Shown: one piece after another, positions 12,871 through 26,194 of the stretch
Position numbering within the stretch: position 1 is the stretch's first letter
How the letters are laid out: each line of letters opens with the position of its first letter
Position numbers and translations under genes: made by a program
Notes under the pieces: generated by a model
The model's input: only the letters and a program-made list of their open reading frames with translations
Database searches by the model: none
Told to the model about the DNA's origin: nothing
Assembly (NCBI GenBank): GCA_009914755.4
Contig: CP068257.2
Span: forward strand, 38,944,001-39,008,000
Length of the DNA stretch: 64,000 nt
DNA from: the human T2T-CHM13v2.0 reference genome, Homo sapiens
Direction of reading: 5' to 3'

Positions 12871-15800
12871 TAGTGTTCTTGATAGTGTAGATAATCAGTA
12901 TGTTTTCCTGTCTCTTCTTCTTTCCATTTCTGATACGTAAACTATGTTTGATTGAAGCATTTAGCAATGAATGGGGAATGCATGTGTACCACCCCCTTCT
13001 TCCTGTATCAAATTCTTTTCTAAGTCACAACATCTTATCTAAATTTTATACCATTCTGACAGTTTCCCAAGAAGCAAGGAGAAAGAGAGCATATTAGCAA
13101 AGTTACTTGTCTATCCTTATTAAAGCACAGTGTGTTAGTATGGTTCAAATATATATATTTTTTTTCTTTAAGATTGCTGGTCTAGTTGAAAAAAGACAAT
13201 GAATTTGGATTAATCATTTCCAATATTCTGATTATACAAGCTACCCCATTGCCTCCAAAAAGGAGTTCTCCCAGGTCTTAGGGTGTTTTTTGTCCTTCCC
13301 ACAGACCACTGCAGGCACAGAAACACTCCAGGCTGTACATTCAAGGAGATGCTTAAGGTATTTATATGTGGAGACTTATGGAAAATACAAAATATTAAAA
13401 TGATATTTTCTTCCTCGGGGAATATAAACTTGTCTCCATTTTTATTTAAAATGCTGGAAGTTATATTGATTTTTATTATAGAATTAATATAGTCACATAG
13501 TAAAAGTTTTAGTAAATACAGATGGGTAGAAAGGCAAAATAAAAATAAATAATAATCTTACACTTTGAGAATAAAATACCAGCATTTTAATGTCTGCCCT
13601 ATAAGCAGACAATTTTGTGCAGTGGGCAGAATGATGTGAGAGAGGCCCCAGGAGCTCACTCAGGGCAGGCTAGACAATGAGCCAACTGGAAGAAGGGGGT
13701 CCTCCTTTCTGTTACCATGAGGGCTGTAGCAGGAGGCCTCTTCCCTTGGCAGCAGGGCCCACATATTCCCATGGGCCTCAGCATCTCCAGGTGCTGGGCA
13801 GCTGGCTGTCCCAGACAACTCCAGTAACAGCTGATGCCTAATCCCAGATAGGCTGTTTATCCCCCTGCCTAGTAGCATTTCTTTGGGGCTTACAAGAAGG
13901 GAGAGTCACTGGGTGCAGGAGGGTCCCTCAACTGGACACAGACCTACCCACTGTGCAGGAGAGCTGGCCCCAGGGTGCCTTGCTGTTGGATGATGTCAGG
14001 ATTCACAGCCCTTTCATTTTCTTGCTTCCATTTATTTTCTTCCTTACAGCTTATTCTTTAACACATACTGTGCCACACTGTGGAATAGACCCTTACTCTT
14101 GTGATAAACAGTTTTATGTATCAACTGGGTCAGGCTATAGTTTCCAGTTATTTGATGAAACCCTTATCTAGGTGTTGCTATGAAGGTTATTGTGTAGGTG
14201 TGGTTAACAGCTATAATCAATTTACTTTAAGTAAAGGAGATTGTCTTTGATCGTTTACGTGGCCCTCATTCAATCAGTCGAAAAGATTTAAGAGGAAAAC
14301 TGAAGCTTCCCTGAGAAAGAAGAAAATTGCTCCTGTGAACTGCGGCATCAGCTCCTGCCTGGGAGTTCTAGCCAGCCCTTTCTGACAGCCTGCCCTACGG
14401 ATTTCAGACACTCTCAGCCCCGCCCCATAGTTGCTACAGCAATTGCCAATTCCTAAAAACACTTCAAGCGCTTCCTCTTCAGATTTCTATCTGTCCCCTA
14501 TATAACTTACTGGTTCTGTGCCTGTGGTGGACCCTGACTGACATACCTCCCTTGTACCAGAGCTGTATCAGACCTTTCACGAGCTTCAATTATGAATAAA
14601 TTAGAAATGACTTCTTTAGGTAAGGTTTATGAAACTTGGAGTTTTTCCTACTTATTTTTTGTGTGTTCACACTGGATTTCAGATGTCAAGAGAGCAAAAT
14701 ATAAATTTAAAATATAAAAATAATATATAGAACATAGAATTAGCAAACAGCAGAAAAAAAAATTTGTGGTATGAACGTAAGGAAGCAAGGACAAATGTAG
14801 TGAACAAAATGAATGCCAAAAGCTGGGATGAGTGCAGGAGAACTGAGGTGGATCTCTGCATTCCCCAAGTACCCTGCAGTGGCCTTCAAAGGCTGAGGGC
14901 AGTCCATTGATGCAAAAAGAGATCTCCCCAGGTACAGAAAGTCAAGAACAGGTCTAGAGAGCAAAGAGAATGCCCCAGAAACTCAAAGAGCTGGCAGGCA
15001 AGCTGTAAAGCAGAAAGAGATCTCCCACAGTTTGGAAAGCTGGTTACTGGTCAGTAAAGCACAAAGATTCAAAGAGTCTGGCTGGTGCTCAGATCCCAAG
15101 CCCTTCTGAAGGCAAAGTGCTGACCCCACCTTCACACCATGTGAACCCAAGGTAAAGAGAATCTAGCTCAGGATCCTAACTCTGCAACAGAGCCCAGCAC
15201 AGCCCAGCCACATGTCAGATTGACTCAGCCCCACATCACCAGCCCGACAGAAGGACAGAAGGAGCATGTCCTTCCTGCAAGGGCAAGGTAAACATTCCTT
15301 ACTTCAATCTGCACACAATGTTTAGCATAAAACAGAAAGTCACAAGACACACAAAGAAACAACAAAACAAGGCCCATGTTTAAAAGATAACTCATTAACA
15401 GAAACAAATATGGAAATGGCCCAGATGTTTGATTTATCACTCAGGAACTTTGTAGCTGCGATGAAGGCTCTAGAGGAAAATACTGACACGTGTGAACAGG
15501 TGAAGAACTACAGCATGGGAAGCAAACGGTGAAAGCAAAACTCAGATGGAACTATCAGGACGTAACTGTATGATACTAGGTAGGAAGAATTCATTTGATG
15601 GGCTTAATAGCAGACTGGACACAGAAGAGAAAAGAATCAAAGGCAGGCCAATAGACAATATCTAAAATAAAACACAAAGAAATTAAACATGAAAAAAATA
15701 AAACAAAGCATCCAAGACCTGTGTAAAAATATCAATCAATATAAACAATTGGAATCCCAGAAGAAGAAGAGAGATACAGGAGAAAAAATATTTTAAGAGA

Positions 15801-16607
15801 CAATAGCCAATATTTTTTAAGTTAAGGAAATACAGCAAGGTACATACCCAAGAAGATTAGCAAACCACAACATAAGATTTTAAAAAGTTATTTCAAAATC
15901 ACACCTAGGTACATCAGAGGTGAACCTTAAAAGAAAAAAAAATTGAAAAGAAATCTTAAAAGTAGCAAGAAAAAATAGCCCATGTTATATTTAGGGGAAG
16001 TATGAAAAGAATGATGGATGAGTTCCTCACAATGGAAAAAAAATTCAAAATGCTGAAAAAAAACTGTCAACATAGAATTCTACATTGAATTCTACATTTA
16101 GTCAAAGTATAAATAAAAAAATAAAAGCTATAGAAGAGAGCAATTCAAATATTCTTCTCATAAATAAAATATGAATATTCAAGGTGATAGATATCTCAAT
16201 TACCTTGATTTGATCTTTACACTTGATATGAATGCTTCAAAAAATCACATGTATCCTGAAGATATGGACATCTAATATGTATCAGTTTAAGAAAATGAAA
16301 GCTAAGTAAAGACATTTTCAGCTAGAGAAGAACTCAGAGATTTTTTTAGCCAAAAAACCTGTGCTCCAAGAAATGCTTAAAGAAATGCAGGCTGAAAGAA
16401 TATGATACATGATAGAAGCTCAAATCTGCAGGAAAGAATGAAAACATAGGTAGTATAACATATAGGTAAAAATAAAGGACCTACTTATTATATTTAATAT
16501 ACATGTGTGTTTGTTTGTATACAGACATACATGTTGCATAATATATTAAGCACATATTAAAGGTTGAGCATCCCCAGTCCAAATATCCAAAATCTGAAAT
16601 ATTCCCA

Positions 16608-16733
16608 TTTTAGTAGAGATGAGGTTTTGCCATGTTGGCCAGGCTGGTCTCAAACTCCTGACCTCAGGTGATCTGCCCACCTCAGCCTCCCAAAGTGCTG
16701 GGTTTACAGGTGTGAGCCACTGCACCTGGCCCA
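16608..16733 (-). mobile_element. Alu left-monomer-only insertion (FLAM-like or 3'-truncated Alu), TSD aaaatctgaa
   Basis: The reverse complement is ggccaggtgcagtggctcacacctgtaaacccagcactttgggaggctgaggtgggcagatcacctgaggtcaggagtttgagaccagcctggccaacatggcaaaacctcatctctactaaaatgg. The flanks are aaaatctgaaatattcccatt | ... | aaaatctgaagc. Confidence 0.8.
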
Positions 16734-16910
16734 AAATCTGAAGCTTTTTGAGATCCAACATGGCATTCCAAAGAAATCCTCATTGGAGAATTGCACATTT
16801 CATTAGGGATGTTCAACTACTAAGTATATAATGCAAATGCAAATTCAAATCCTAAAAGATCTGAAATCTAAAACATTTCTGGTACCAAGCACTTGGGATA
16901 AGGGATACTC

Positions 16911-16965
16911 AACATGTGTGTGTGTGGGTGTGTGTGTGTGTGTGTGTGTGTGTTTATGTGTACAT
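16911..16965. repeat. (GT)n microsatellite
   Basis: tgtgtgtgtgggtgtgtgtgtgtgtgtgtgtgtgtgtttatgtgt. Confidence 0.95.
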
Positions 16966-24894: not shown

Positions 24895-25037
24895 ATTTTT
24901 TTTTTTTTTTTCCTGAGACAGAGTCTCGCTCTGTTGCCCAGGCTGGAGTGCAGTGGCGCGATCTCTGCTCACTGCAAGCTCTGCCTCCCGAGTTCAAGCC
25001 ATTCTCCTGCCTCAGCCTCTCGAGTAGCTGGGACTAC
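24895..25037 (-). mobile_element. Alu right-arm fragment (reverse orientation)
   Basis: Poly-T, then cctgagacagagtctcgctctgttgcccaggctggagtgcagtggcgcgatctctgctcactgcaagctctgcctcccgagttcaagccattctcctgcctcagcctctcgagtagctgggactaca. Confidence 0.88.
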
Positions 25038-25064
25038 ATTAAATTAACTTTTAAAGACTACTGA

Positions 25065-25372
25065 GGCCTGGTCGGGGTGGCTCACGTCTGTAGTCCCAGC
25101 ACTTTGGGAGGCTGAGGTGGGTGGATCACCTGAGGTCATGAGTTGAAGACCAGCCTGGCCAACATGGTGAAACCCCGTCTCTACTAAAAATACAAAAATT
25201 AGCCAGGCGTGGTGGCGGGCGCCCATAATCCCAGCTACTTGGGAGGCTGAGGCAGGGGAATTGCTTGAACTCAAGAGGCAGAGGTTGCAGTGTGCCAAGA
25301 TGGTGCCACTGCACTACAGCTATAACTTGGGTGACAGAGGGAGACTCTGTCTCAAAAAAAAACAAAACAGAC
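25065..25372 (+). mobile_element. Alu SINE (AluS-like), full length, TSD actactgag
   Basis: ggcctggtcggggtggctcacgtctgtagtcccagcactttgggaggctgaggtgggtggatcacctgaggtcatgagttgaagaccagcctggccaacatggtgaaaccccgtctctactaaaaatacaaaaattagccaggcgtggtggcgggcgcccataatcccagctacttgggaggctgaggcagg...ctctgtctcaaaaaaaaacaaaac. The flanks are gactactgag | Alu | agactactgagaac. Confidence 0.93.
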
Positions 25373-26194
25373 TACTGAGAACGTTAAAAAGAAGGTAGAT
25401 TTTAAAATTGTAATTAAAAGAGCATGGAAAGTAGAAAAAAATCAATAGAACTTATATAAACTTCCACACCAGTAGAAGAAATAAAGGAAATAGAGAATCA
25501 TCTAATGGGGACAGGAAAGGCGGGTGGGCTGGAAGACAATCCAAGACCAAATGCAGTAAGTGGAAAACACCCAATGTACCAGAAGCCAAAGGAAAAATAT
25601 ATGTACCTACATGACTAACTAAAGAAAAACAATAACAGATTTTGAAAAGTATCTTGTGGAGCATAGCTATGGTGTTTATTAGAAAGAAGTGTATAGGTTT
25701 AAATGCATTTCTTTTTTGAAAAAGAAAGACTGGAAACAAATTAGCTCAATATTCAATTTAAGAAGCGAGAAGAATGCAGTAAACTGAAAGGACTTCGAAG
25801 AAAGATGATAAAATACAAAACAACAAGGAATTGAAAATGAAAGCTGTGTTTTGTTTTTAAAAAGACGAATAATATAGTATAGAAAAACATCTCAGCAAAA
25901 CACAAATGATCAATGGGAATGAAAAAGAAGACAGGACTCTGGATAAAGCAGGTCCTTTTAAATCGTAAGAGAATCCTTTAAACGAAGAAGCATATGTGGT
26001 CCTCTGGCAGAAGCTGGGGAATGCGCTGCAGCCTCAAGGAGGTGGCGGGAAACCTAGTTTTAGTCCCCACCCTCAGGACTGAGACCACCTTTTGCTAGTT
26101 CCATGGGCTGAGCAGCTGTTTATGGCACTTTGTGTCAATCTCTGAGCCAGAAGTGTTCACCTAGGACCTTTTATAAATCTTATCTCTGAAACTG

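What the first reader, a model, noticed from the sequence alone, without database searches (positions are those of the whole stretch)
14700..26000. Nested retroelement cluster: old L1 carrying a solo LTR7 (HERV-H), an LTR12-family LTR, three Alus and a tiny young-L1 tail
Reading along the plus strand, L1 homology (ORF1 then ORF2) is repeatedly broken and then resumes exactly where it left off. The breaks are an Alu left-monomer (16608-16733), an Alu (17920-18194), an Alu half (19544-19706, with TSD), an LTR7 (19798-20246), and an LTR12 block (ending 23590). This is a classic record of insertions ordered in time into one old L1 (or two adjacent L1s). LTR7 and LTR12 are the two primate LTR families best known from the literature for acting as cell-type-specific promoters. 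LTR7 is active in pluripotent cells. LTR12 is active in germline and is responsive to epigenetic drugs. Here they sit 2 kb apart, in the same orientation. If either is transcriptionally active, this locus could seed a chimeric or lncRNA transcript running rightward.
Basis: partly seen in the sequence, partly recalled or inferred. Interest (0 to 1): 0.5.

Follow-up and report, generated by a model that had tools for sequence, protein, structure and literature searches.

The report
Ordinary nested primate retroelement cluster
This 11-kb stretch is an ordinary pile-up of primate "junk DNA" insertions (old L1s carrying Alus, an LTR7, an LTR12-type LTR and a previously unnoticed HERV-T remnant), and nothing in the sequence shows it does anything unusual.

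Summary
The finding is essentially right in kind and wrong in several details. 14.7-26.0 kb is a nested primate retroelement cluster.

Confirmed:
- L1 ORF1 then ORF2 homology on the + strand.
- Alu pieces at 16.6, 17.9 and 19.5 kb.
- A complete solo LTR7 at 19798-20245, about 93% identical to published LTR7 consensi, flanked by CATAT.
- An LTR12-type solo LTR ending at 23590.
- A tiny L1PA-type tail.

Corrected:
- The "LTR12 block" is two elements. The real LTR12-type LTR is only 23115-23590. 21728-22911 is a minus-strand HERV-T (HERVS71) remnant: LTR, tRNA-Thr primer site, leader and an R-U5 stub, with TSD TTAG.
- There are five Alu-derived pieces, not three.
- There are three old L1 pieces, not one or two. 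L1-B is nested in L1-A beside the LTR7, so L1-A resumes at 21.4 kb, not right after the LTR7.
- The two LTRs lie 2.9 kb apart, not 2 kb.

The promoter idea is untestable here. The LTR7 is 7u1/7d-like, not the ESC-active 7up type. The LTR12 copy has a broken start-site palindrome and no GATA motif. This is ordinary, already-known biology of low interest.

The parts
14700..19797 (+). L1-A, left part: an old L1M-type element with a 5' region, ORF1, and ORF2 up to about aa 725-745. The start coordinate is approximate.
   Evidence: tblastn with ORF1p/ORF2p references that were themselves validated against PDB. ORF1 frameshift-tolerant z 6.5. DNA match of 15594-15864 to the ORF1 region of the L1 at 48.6-48.9 kb.
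16556..16915 (.). Non-L1 segment with TIR-like ends (GTTGAGCATCCC / GTTGAACATCCC / GTTGAGTATCCC). Probably a DNA-transposon fossil. Family not determined.
   Evidence: Inverted-end alignment scores 32 against shuffles of 19 +/- 3.3, with a shuffle maximum of 31. This is borderline. Also read directly from the sequence.
16599..16730 (-). AluS-type left arm only (consensus positions 1-124) plus a 9-nt remnant of the A-rich linker. Flanked by a perfect 12-nt TSD, CCAAAATCTGAA, at 16587-16598 and 16731-16742.
16915..16961 (.). (TG)n microsatellite, 23.5 copies.
17919..18194 (+). AluY, 5'-truncated by about 27 nt, 93% identical to the consensus. L1-A is continuous across it (aa 216 on the left, aa 251 on the right, with 103 nt of L1 between those points).
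19543..19708 (-). AluS right arm (consensus positions 134-289) plus poly(T). A 5'-truncated insertion with TSD TAAGGTRCCTGA(T)n at 19531-19542 and 19706-19717.
19798..20245 (+). Complete solo LTR7 (HERV-H LTR), 448 bp, running TGTCAGG...ATGAAA. It has a TATAAAA box and an ATTAAA signal. CATAT flanks it at 19793-19797 and 20246-20250. It is a 7u1/7d-like mosaic.
   Evidence: Alignment to the 11 published LTR7 subfamily consensi (PMC8912925 supplementary file 7).
20251..21400 (+). L1-B: a second old L1, 5'-truncated at ORF2 aa ~875-890, with its own ORF2 C-terminus and 3' end. It is nested in L1-A.
   Evidence: ORF2p aa 910-967 and 1058-1212. Its C-terminal region, 20822-20992, aligns to the other copy at 22929-23105 with z 4.9.
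21401..24098 (+). L1-A, right part, in three blocks: 21401-21727, 22916-23114 and 23591-24098. It resumes at ORF2 aa ~731, has an internal deletion of aa ~770-1055 near 21.53 kb, and ends in A10 at 24088-24097.
   Evidence: aa 731-766 at 21401-21508 (z 2.5; 6 of 200 shuffles reach the score). aa 1059-1083 at 21550-21624 (z 4.8). aa 1214-1258 at 23629-23760 (z 8.3).
21728..22911 (-). HERV-T (HERVS71) provirus remnant. Reading along the minus strand:
- 5' LTR from 22911 to 22385, with TATAAAAG, AATAAA and a 26-bp internal deletion.
- PBS from 22381 to 22364.
- Leader down to 22119.
- Then only the R-U5 end of the 3' LTR, at 22118-22092 and 21772-21728.
A perfect 4-bp TSD, TTAG, lies at 21724-21727 and 22912-22915.
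   Evidence: The PBS matches a tRNA-Thr probe at 17 of 18 positions (PMC12820529).
21773..22091 (+). Insertion inside the HERV-T 3' LTR stub. It consists of about 73 nt of L1PA-type 3' end, A11, about 226 nt of AT-rich sequence, ATTAAA and A16. This is either a severely 5'-truncated L1 with a 3' transduction or two separate events. No clear TSD; about 3 bp of target are missing.
   Evidence: 76% match to the L1 3' end at 43984-43908. The repeats D3, D4 and D5 bracket it. The intact LTR sequence in related loci shows what was interrupted.
23115..23590 (+). LTR12-family (ERV9) solo LTR, 476 bp, with TSD GCAA at 23111-23114 and 23591-23594. Features:
- 2 x 41-bp plus 4.7 x 24-bp U3 repeats containing 5 CCAAT boxes.
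- GTGGGGA.
- AATAAAA at 23369.
- Inr-like GCCAGCAGCAGC at 23389.
- AATAAA at 23455.
   Evidence: Defining features taken from PMC11853044.
24099..25990 (+). L1-C: a third old L1 piece with an ORF1 region and weak ORF2 N-terminal homology, cut off at its 3' side.
   Evidence: 24112-24660 aligns to L1-A ORF1 at 15611-16178 with z 5.4. There are weak colinear ORF1p and ORF2p hits. The ORF2 part is not significant on its own.
24896..25038 (-). AluY right-arm fragment (consensus positions 158-288) with poly(T).
25065..25367 (+). Full-length AluS with TSD AGACTACTGAG at 25055-25065 and 25369-25379.

Best explanation
The region is a passive fossil record of successive transposable-element insertions in a primate (human-like) genome.

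Inferred order of events:
1. An old L1 (L1-A) was hit by a second old, 5'-truncated L1 (L1-B).
2. L1-A was also hit by a small element with TIR-like ends, probably a DNA-transposon fossil.
3. During primate evolution, Alu elements inserted: an AluS left arm, an AluS right arm and an AluY.
4. A HERV-H provirus inserted and later collapsed to a solo LTR7.
5. A HERV-T provirus inserted on the opposite strand and later lost everything between its leader and the R region of its 3' LTR.
6. An ERV9 provirus inserted and collapsed to a short LTR12-type solo LTR.
7. A tiny L1PA-type tail, with a possible 3' transduction, landed inside the HERV-T stub.
8. A third old L1 piece (L1-C), with two more Alus, abuts on the right.

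Each event used the standard mechanism of its class. L1 and Alu insert by target-primed reverse transcription. Retroviruses integrate with 4-5-bp duplications, and solo LTRs form by LTR-LTR recombination.

No function is indicated. The insertion order follows from the nesting and is shown. The mechanisms are inferred from TSDs, tails and termini.
For: - L1: ORF1p and ORF2p references were validated against PDB and mapped colinearly onto the + strand. Two copies of the ORF2 C-terminus exist (z 4.9). L1-C is homologous to L1-A ORF1 (z 5.4).
- Alu: there are five pieces, each matching about 20 window Alus and Alu consensi, with TSDs.
- LTR7: it aligns full-length to published consensi at 91-94% identity, against 86-89% for 7B, 7C and 7Y, and has 5-bp flanking repeats.
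- HERV-T: the LTR is shared at 71-94.5% identity with at least 12 other loci, all ending at the same ACAACA. Its start, TGTAATGCCC, is fixed by L016, L018 and L027. Copies with the closest LTRs adjoin an env whose only named relatives are 'Endogenous retrovirus group S71 member 1 Env polyprotein'. The PBS matches a tRNA-Thr probe at 17/18 positions. The 4-bp TSD is perfect.
- LTR12: 41-bp and 24-bp CCAAT repeats, the MZF1 motif, AATAAAA followed by an Inr-like motif, a size of about 480 bp and a 4-bp TSD.
Against: - No RepeatMasker or Dfam library was available. The LTR12 family and subfamily, the Alu subfamilies and the L1PA tail rest on motif features, on consensi recalled from memory and on within-window matches.
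- Some L1 pieces are barely or not significant against L1HS proteins on their own: 21401-21508 has z 2.5, 19709-19797 has z 0, and the ORF2 part of L1-C has z 0.8-2.2.
- The L1-A / L1-B nesting model requires the LTR7 to sit within a few bp of L1-B's 5' junction. That is an unexplained coincidence.
- No significant TSD was found for L1-B.
Confidence: 0.9

Rival explanations
1. One reading: one old L1 (or two adjacent L1s) that resumes exactly after each insert, with a single large LTR12 block running from about 21.7-22.1 kb to 23590, three Alus and a tiny L1 tail.
For: The end of the LTR12 at 23590, the LTR7 coordinates, three of the Alus and the L1 tail are all correct.
Against: - 21728-22911 reads as an LTR, PBS(Thr) and leader on the minus strand. 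It belongs to a family whose proviral copies carry S71 env.
- 22916-23114 is L1 ORF2 C-terminus.
- ORF2 coordinates jump from about aa 725-745 to about aa 875-890 across the LTR7, then fall back to aa 731 at 21401.
- Two more Alu pieces exist.
Confidence: 0.03
2. One or both + strand LTRs are live cell-type-specific promoters or enhancers that start a rightward lncRNA or chimeric transcript. The LTR7 would act in pluripotent cells. The LTR12 would act in germline or HDAC-inhibitor-treated cells.
For: - The LTR7 is complete. It keeps its TATAAAA box and the 8-bp AAAAGAAG SOX2/3 insertion in block 2b (PMC8912925).
- The LTR12 keeps 5 CCAAT boxes, a GTGGGGA motif and AATAAAA about 26 nt upstream of an Inr-like motif.
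Against: - The LTR7 matches the 7u1 consensus at 4 of 4 sites that separate 7up from 7u1, and it carries many 7d-like sites. The paper reports that 7u1 is untranscribed in ESCs although it has the same motif, and that almost all ESC-transcribed HERVH belong to 7up.
- The LTR7 is also 7-8% diverged from its closest consensi.
- In the LTR12, the GCCANNNNTGGC palindrome that the review describes as essential for start-site use reads GCCAGCAGCAGC. No GATA core is left. It is the short form, lacking the 5' extension of about 600 nt linked to exaptation.
- No expression data could be consulted.
Confidence: 0.08
3. The two copies of the L1 ORF2 C-terminus and 3' end (20.25-21.4 kb and 21.4-24.1 kb) arose by local tandem duplication of a single L1, not by two L1 insertions.
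For: They have the same orientation, lie next to each other and overlap in L1 coordinates.
Against: - The copies are only about 56% identical over the aligned 192 columns. That is no closer than unrelated old L1 copies.
- Their L1 start points differ (about aa 875-890 versus aa 731).
- The second copy fits as the continuation of the 5' L1.
Confidence: 0.05

Closest known systems
LTR7 (HERV-H LTR), sensu stricto; nearest are the published subfamilies 7u1 and 7up2, with 7d1 features
   Same: - Full-length colinear match from TGTCAGG to ATGAAA.
- 92.7-93.8% identity to the 7up2 and 7u1 consensi.
- Block 2b with the 8-bp AAAAGAAG insertion.
- TATAAAA and ATTAAA signals, and 5-bp flanking repeats.
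   Different: - It is a mosaic. At 21 substitution sites separating 7up/7u1 from 7d, it is 10 7up/u1-like and 11 7d-like.
- Block 2a is 7d/7o-like.
- It matches 7u1 rather than 7up at 4 of 4 sites.
- It is 7-8% diverged, which is more than expected for a 14-20 My 7u1 copy.
LTR12 family (ERV9 LTRs); the short LTR12F form is the best fit by size
   Same: - U3 tandem repeats carrying CCAAT boxes.
- GTGGGGA motif.
- AATAAAA upstream of an Inr-like GCCAGCAG motif.
- R/U5 with AATAAA, a terminal ...GGACACA, a 4-bp TSD and a length of about 480 bp.
   Different: - Only 2 units of 41 bp plus about 5 units of 24 bp, where 5-17 units of about 41 nt are described.
- The start-site palindrome is broken.
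- No GATA motif is present.
- The first bases read TAGG rather than TG.
- Identity to any LTR12 consensus could not be measured.
HERV-T / HERVS71 with LTR6-type LTRs
   Same: - tRNA-Thr primer-binding site.
- Gammaretrovirus-like LTR with a TATA box, AATAAA and TG...CA ends.
- 4-bp TSD.
- The LTR is 93-94.5% identical to LTRs that follow S71-type env in other loci.
   Different: - It is not a solo LTR and not a full provirus. It keeps the 5' LTR, PBS and about 245 nt of leader, then jumps to the last 72 nt or so (R-U5) of the 3' LTR.
- It has a 26-bp deletion in U3.
- The clade (LTR6A, LTR6B or T1) was not determined.
Old mammalian L1 (L1M-type) elements and L1PA 3' ends
   Same: - ORF1 and ORF2 order, A-rich sense strand, 5' truncation, and nested insertions.
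- The tail shows a poly(A) - extra sequence - poly(A) layout typical of a 3' transduction.
   Different: - All copies are riddled with stops, frameshifts and internal deletions, at only 25-45% aa identity to L1HS.
- The subfamilies were not determined.

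Membership tests
LTR7 (HERV-H LTR) | Full-length sequence similarity to the LTR7 consensus, better than to LTR7B, LTR7C or LTR7Y | tested here: met
   92.7% to 7up2, 93.8% to 7u1 and 95.5% to 7d1 (the last with a 41-column gap). 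This compares with 85.6-88.6% to 7b, 7c and 7y (consensi from PMC8912925 supplementary file 7).
LTR7 (HERV-H LTR) | Complete LTR termini with a short target-site duplication, as expected of a solo LTR | tested here: met
   The LTR runs TGTCAGG...ATGAAA, and CATAT lies on both sides. That HERV-H makes a 5-bp TSD is from my own knowledge.
LTR7up (the ESC-active subfamily) | 8-bp AAAAGAAG (SOX2/3) insertion in block 2b | tested here: met
   CCACCACAAAAGAAGTGAAAATGG is present. The motif is shared with the untranscribed 7u1 subfamily.
LTR7up (the ESC-active subfamily) | 7up-specific substitutions relative to 7u1 | tested here: not met
   The copy is 7u1-like at all 4 true substitution sites, alignment columns 131, 145, 283 and 440.
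LTR12 (ERV9 LTR) | U3 tandem repeats of about 41 nt carrying CCAAT (NF-Y) motifs | tested here: met
   2.0 copies of a 41-bp unit plus 4.7 copies of a 24-bp unit. There are 5 CCAAT boxes in 143 bp, against 0.84 per kb in the whole window. This is fewer full units than the 5-17 described.
LTR12 (ERV9 LTR) | TSS motif GCCAGCAGTGGC (inverted repeat GCCANNNNTGGC) with AATAAAA about 30 nt upstream | tested here: inconclusive
   AATAAAA lies at 23369. The motif at 23389 reads GCCAGCAGCAGC, with 2 mismatches and the palindrome lost. This fits a decayed member.
LTR12 (ERV9 LTR) | GATA (TCTGTATCTAGCT) and MZF1 (GTGGGGA) motifs in the repeats | tested here: inconclusive
   GTGGGGA is present at 23148. 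The GATA element reads TCTGTGTCTAGCT, and no GATA or TATC core occurs anywhere in the LTR.
LTR12 (ERV9 LTR) | Sequence identity to an LTR12, 12B-F consensus | not testable with these tools
Literature string searches found nothing. The viral-contig hits were chance phage matches.
HERV-T / HERVS71 | Primer-binding site complementary to tRNA-Thr | tested here: met
   TGGAGGCCCCAGCAAGAT, 3 nt after the LTR end, compared with the tRNA-Thr probe TGGAGGCCCCAGCGAGAT. That is 17 of 18, and the one difference is a CpG transition.
HERV-T / HERVS71 | LTR of the kind that flanks S71-type internal sequence | tested here: met
   The LTRs in L016 and L027 are 93.1% and 94.5% identical to the window LTR and directly follow an env C-terminus and polypurine tract. 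All named hits to that env are 'Endogenous retrovirus group S71 member 1 Env polyprotein'.
HERV-T / HERVS71 | Identity to the Repbase LTR6A or LTR6B consensus (clade assignment) | not testable with these tools
The supplements of PMC5388530 hold coordinates only.
L1 (LINE-1) | Colinear ORF1p and ORF2p (EN, RT, C-terminal) homology on one strand | tested here: met
   Pfam HMMs found nothing in the decayed frames.
Alu | Similarity to the dimeric 7SL-derived Alu consensus and to other genomic copies, with an A tail and a TSD | tested here: met
   86-93% identity to consensi recalled from memory, which match other window copies at up to 96.9%. Each piece also matches about 20 other window copies. 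TSDs were found for four of the five pieces.

The most novel reading that the evidence does not exclude
The LTR7 copy looks like an evolutionary intermediate. It has 7u1/7up architecture, including the SOX2/3 8-bp insertion, but 7d-like sequence in block 2a and elsewhere, and its 2a and 2b repeats are unusually alike. If this copy, or the nearby LTR12-type LTR, were transcriptionally active, it could drive an unannotated rightward lncRNA. The oppositely oriented HERV-T LTR would then lie between the two as a possible antisense promoter.
Probability: 0.06. Interest if true: 0.3.

Novelty: already known. Interest (0 to 1): 0.1.

Why it matters
It matters little. Clusters like this cover much of primate genomes and are routinely annotated by RepeatMasker.

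The useful outcome is a corrected map, with a HERV-T remnant found inside the supposed LTR12 block, an L1 nested in another L1, and extra Alus.

The second outcome is a sequence-based reason to expect weak promoter activity from both LTRs. If either LTR did prove active, it would be one more example of LTR-driven lncRNA transcription, not a new principle.

Tried and rejected
- Pfam scan of three-frame translations of the putative ORF1 and ORF2 pieces found no L1 domains because the frames are too decayed.
- tblastx and blastn of the old L1 pieces against the other L1 in the window gave mostly noise.
- Literature string searches for LTR12, HERV-T LTR, DNA-transposon TIR and HERV-T env peptides returned nothing, apart from the tRNA-Thr probe.
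- I searched the supplementary alignments of PMC8912925 for this exact LTR7 copy, to obtain genome coordinates. It was not found; the files are truncated and line-wrapped.
- The HERV-T catalogue supplement of PMC5388530 holds coordinates only, with no sequences.
- The viral-contig scan with the HERV-T R 19-mer gave 0 hits. The scan with an LTR12 18-mer gave 6 contigs with no further LTR12 similarity.
- L012 looked like a provirus with two LTRs, but its 5-kb interior is GC-rich and non-retroviral.
- A TSD for the L1-B insertion was sought but was not significant.
- I prepared stop-to-stop ORFs to identify the host gene or locus, but did not scan them. The locus remains unidentified.
- The Rfam gathering scan found nothing in the region.
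- My first boundaries for the minus-strand LTR (start at 22869, a 5-bp imperfect TSD) were wrong. Related loci corrected them.

Full report
**Nature of the sequence.** The window is AT-rich, repeat-dense primate DNA. It holds about 24 Alu copies, several decayed L1s, no intact ORFs of note, and a single Rfam hit that is an Alu mimicking 7SL RNA. No repeat library (RepeatMasker, Dfam) was available. Each family assignment below therefore rests on protein homology, published consensus sequences, related loci fetched from public contigs, or motif features taken from reviews. I say which applies in each case.

**L1 backbone: references.** ORF2p matched 8uw3_A over residues 1-1275 at 2930 bits, and ORF1p matched 2yko, 2ykp and 6fia. 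I then used both for tblastn against the window.

**L1 backbone: ORF2 map.** On the + strand, ORF2 maps as follows:

| ORF2p residues | Window coordinates |
|---|---|
| 75-216 | 17438-17861 |
| 251-682 | 18241-19487 |
| 910-967 | 20318-20491 |
| 1058-1212 | 20601-21036 |
| 1059-1083 | 21550-21624 |
| 1214-1258 | 23629-23760 |

**L1 backbone: ORF1.**
- ORF1p aa 133-237 maps to 15664-15975 and aa 290-319 to 16294-16384. Both hits are weak on their own.
- A frameshift-tolerant alignment of 15400-16420 to ORF1p exceeds all 60 shuffles, with z 6.5.
- 15594-15864 matches the ORF1 region of the other L1 in the window at the DNA level.
- "ORF1 then ORF2" is therefore confirmed. Pfam HMMs saw nothing in these decayed frames.

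**How many L1s.** The ORF2 C-terminal region occurs twice. 20822-20992 and 22929-23105 align with z 4.9, at only about 56% identity, so at least two L1 3' portions are present.

Coordinate bookkeeping suggests a nesting:
- The 5' L1 runs to about aa 725-745 at the left edge of the LTR7. This is extrapolated from aa 682 at 19487.
- The sequence right of the LTR7 starts at about aa 875-890 and runs to its own 3' end near 21400.
- At 21401-21508 the sequence matches aa 731-766 (z 2.5; 6 of 200 shuffles reach the score).
- It then jumps to aa 1059 at 21550, which implies an internal deletion beside a (TA)n patch.

The simplest model is as follows:
- L1-A occupies 14.7-19.8 kb and 21.4-24.1 kb, ending in A10 at 24088-24097.
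- L1-B (20251-21400) is 5'-truncated and nested inside L1-A.
- L1-C (24.1-25.99 kb) is a third piece. Its 24112-24660 aligns to L1-A ORF1 with z 5.4. Its ORF2 part is only weakly supported.

Across the LTR7 it holds only in the sense that L1-A resumes 1.15 kb further on, after L1-B. The nesting model is an inference. I could not demonstrate a TSD for L1-B. It is also an unexplained coincidence that the LTR7 lies within a few bp of L1-B's 5' junction.

**Alus.** There are five Alu-derived pieces, not three.
- 16599-16730 (-): an AluS-type left arm, consensus positions 1-124. It has a perfect 12-nt TSD, CCAAAATCTGAA. It sits inside a non-L1 segment with TIR-like ends, not directly in L1 (borderline).
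- 17919-18194 (+): an AluY lacking about 27 nt at its 5' end.
- 19543-19708 (-): an AluS right arm with TSD TAAGGTRCCTGA.
- 24896-25038 (-): an AluY right arm.
- 25065-25367 (+): a full-length AluS with TSD AGACTACTGAG.

A (TG)23 array lies at 16915-16961. The subfamily calls use Alu consensi recalled from memory. These match other window copies at up to 96.9%, which supports their accuracy.

**LTR7.** The first 22 nt of the element occur verbatim in the LTR7 reporter constructs of Carter et al. 2022. Supplementary file 7 of that paper provides consensi for 11 LTR7 subfamilies.
- The window copy, 19798-20245, aligns full-length. It is 92.7% identical to 7up2, 93.8% to 7u1 and 91.2% to 7up1. 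It is 95.5% identical to 7d1, but with a 41-column gap. It is only 85.6-88.6% identical to 7b, 7c and 7y.
- It has block 2b with the 8-bp AAAAGAAG insertion.
- At the four true substitution sites that separate 7up from 7u1, it is 7u1-like every time.
- Against 7d, its indel architecture is 7up/u1-like (54 columns to 1), while its substitution sites split 10 to 11.
- CATAT flanks both ends.

It is thus a genuine solo LTR7 sensu stricto, a 7u1/7d-like mosaic and not canonical 7up. According to the paper, nearly all ESC-transcribed HERVH belong to 7up. The paper also reports that 7u1 carries the same SOX2/3 motif yet is untranscribed, and that a 7d construct is weak.

**The "LTR12 block" is two elements.** Read on the minus strand, 22911 to 22385 is a gammaretrovirus-like LTR with TATAAAAG and AATAAA, ending in ...ACAACA. 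Three nucleotides later comes TGGAGGCCCCAGCAAGAT. This matches a published probe complementary to human tRNA-Thr at 17 of 18 positions, and the one difference is a CpG transition. About 245 nt of leader follow. After that, only the last 72 nt or so (R-U5) of a second LTR copy remain, seen as direct repeats D3 and D4.

A scan of metagenome contigs with the R-region 19-mer returned 27 primate-contaminant contigs.
- The LTR aligns at 71-94.5% identity to at least 12 distinct loci. All of them end at the same ACAACA.
- L016, L018 and L027 fix the true LTR start at TGTAATGCCC, window position 22911. They also reveal a 26-bp deletion in the window copy.
- With those ends, the element spans 21728-22911 and has a perfect 4-bp TSD, TTAG.
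- In L016 and L027 the LTR follows an env C-terminus and a polypurine tract.
- That env finds 41 relatives. Every named one is "Endogenous retrovirus group S71 member 1 Env polyprotein".

The block is therefore a HERV-T (HERVS71) remnant on the strand opposite to the LTR7 and LTR12. The two LTR ends differ at 7 of 71 positions. With the rate used in PMC5388530, that suggests very roughly 20 My.

**Insertion inside the HERV-T stub.** The R-U5 stub is split by 21773-22091.
- This consists of about 73 nt of L1PA-type 3' end, A11, about 226 nt of AT-rich sequence, ATTAAA and A16.
- The 3' end matches another L1 3' end in the window at 76%.
- The layout is that of a severely 5'-truncated L1 with a 3' transduction. 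Two separate events are the alternative.
- No TSD is visible, and about 3 bp of target are missing.

**LTR12 proper.** Only 23115-23590 (476 bp, + strand) has LTR12 hallmarks as listed in PMC11853044.
- It has tandem U3 repeats, 2 x 41 bp plus 4.7 x 24 bp.
- It has five CCAAT boxes in 143 bp, against 0.84 per kb in the window.
- It has a GTGGGGA motif, and AATAAAA about 26 nt upstream of an Inr-like motif.
- It has a downstream AATAAA and a 4-bp TSD, GCAA, inside continuous L1 sequence.
- Its length fits the roughly 500-bp LTR12F class.
- The start-site palindrome GCCANNNNTGGC reads GCCAGCAGCAGC, the GATA element reads TGTC, and no GATA core remains.

I could not obtain any LTR12 consensus. 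Family membership therefore rests on features, and the subfamily is untested.

**Interpretation.** Everything fits a passive, time-ordered insertion record.
- Old L1s and the segment with TIR-like ends came first.
- AluS, HERV-T, ERV9, HERV-H and AluY followed during catarrhine and hominoid evolution.
- The L1PA tail arrived after HERV-T.
- The LTR7 and LTR12 do share the + orientation, but they lie 2,869 bp apart.
- A HERV-T LTR points the other way between them. HERV-T and LTR6B are reported targets of KAP1 repression.

Promoter activity cannot be assessed here. The sequence features lean against it for both LTRs.

**Verdict.** This is ordinary, already-known biology of low interest. The locus and host gene were not identified.

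Noticed in passing
window 19793-20255: The solo LTR7 sits within a few bp of the 5' junction of the nested L1-B, and its CATAT duplication straddles that junction. I have no explanation beyond coincidence.
   Followed up: partly
window 16556-16915: A non-L1 segment with TIR-like ends (GTTGAGCATCCC..., with two candidate right ends at about 16800-16818 and 16900-16912) hosts the Alu left arm. It is probably a DNA-transposon fossil. The family was not identified and the inverted-end score is only borderline.
   Followed up: partly
window 24651-24895: A GC-rich, non-L1, non-Alu stretch lies inside L1-C. A perfect 10-nt inverted repeat, AAGTGAAGAT / ATCTTCACTT, bounds 24651-24819. Its identity is unknown.
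   Followed up: partly
window 43000-49100: A second, better preserved old L1 lies on the minus strand, with ORF1 at 48.2-49.05 kb and ORF2 down to 43.08 kb. It is interrupted by two Alus and by a younger + strand L1 ORF2 fragment at 44146-44855 (69% aa identity to L1HS). An L1 3' tail lies next to that fragment at 43908-43984 (-). This may be a 5'-inverted (twin-primed) insertion.
   Followed up: no
window 39821-40092: The only Rfam gathering-level hit in the window is Metazoa_SRP at 39940-40087. It falls inside an AluJ-type element, so it is an Alu resembling 7SL RNA, not an SRP RNA gene.
   Followed up: partly
window 8391-8741: A low-GC (29%) short-period repeat yields a spurious 116-aa ORF made of the repeated peptide MFIYVYMFIYSYM.
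   Followed up: no
L012 866-1340 and 6317-6794: One metagenome contig carries two copies of the HERV-T-type LTR in the same orientation, 5 kb apart. The interior is GC-rich, not retroviral, and has no PBS. These are two solo LTRs or a rearranged locus, and the contig may come from a non-human primate.
   Followed up: partly
L002, L004, L005, L008, L009, L011, L013, L014, L021-L025: Thirteen contigs from different metagenome assemblies carry the same HERV-T-type LTR locus, with an identical 3' flank beginning GTCCACACTGTGGCC (L021 differs at one base). L018 shares that 3' flank but has a different upstream flank and LTR type. This shows recurrent host-DNA contamination of public metagenome assemblies.
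   Followed up: no
window 19860-19980: In this LTR7 copy, blocks 2a and 2b look by eye more alike than the ~81% similarity the paper reports for the 7up/7u1 blocks. I did not measure it. That would be expected of a copy close to the tandem duplication that created block 2b.
   Followed up: partly
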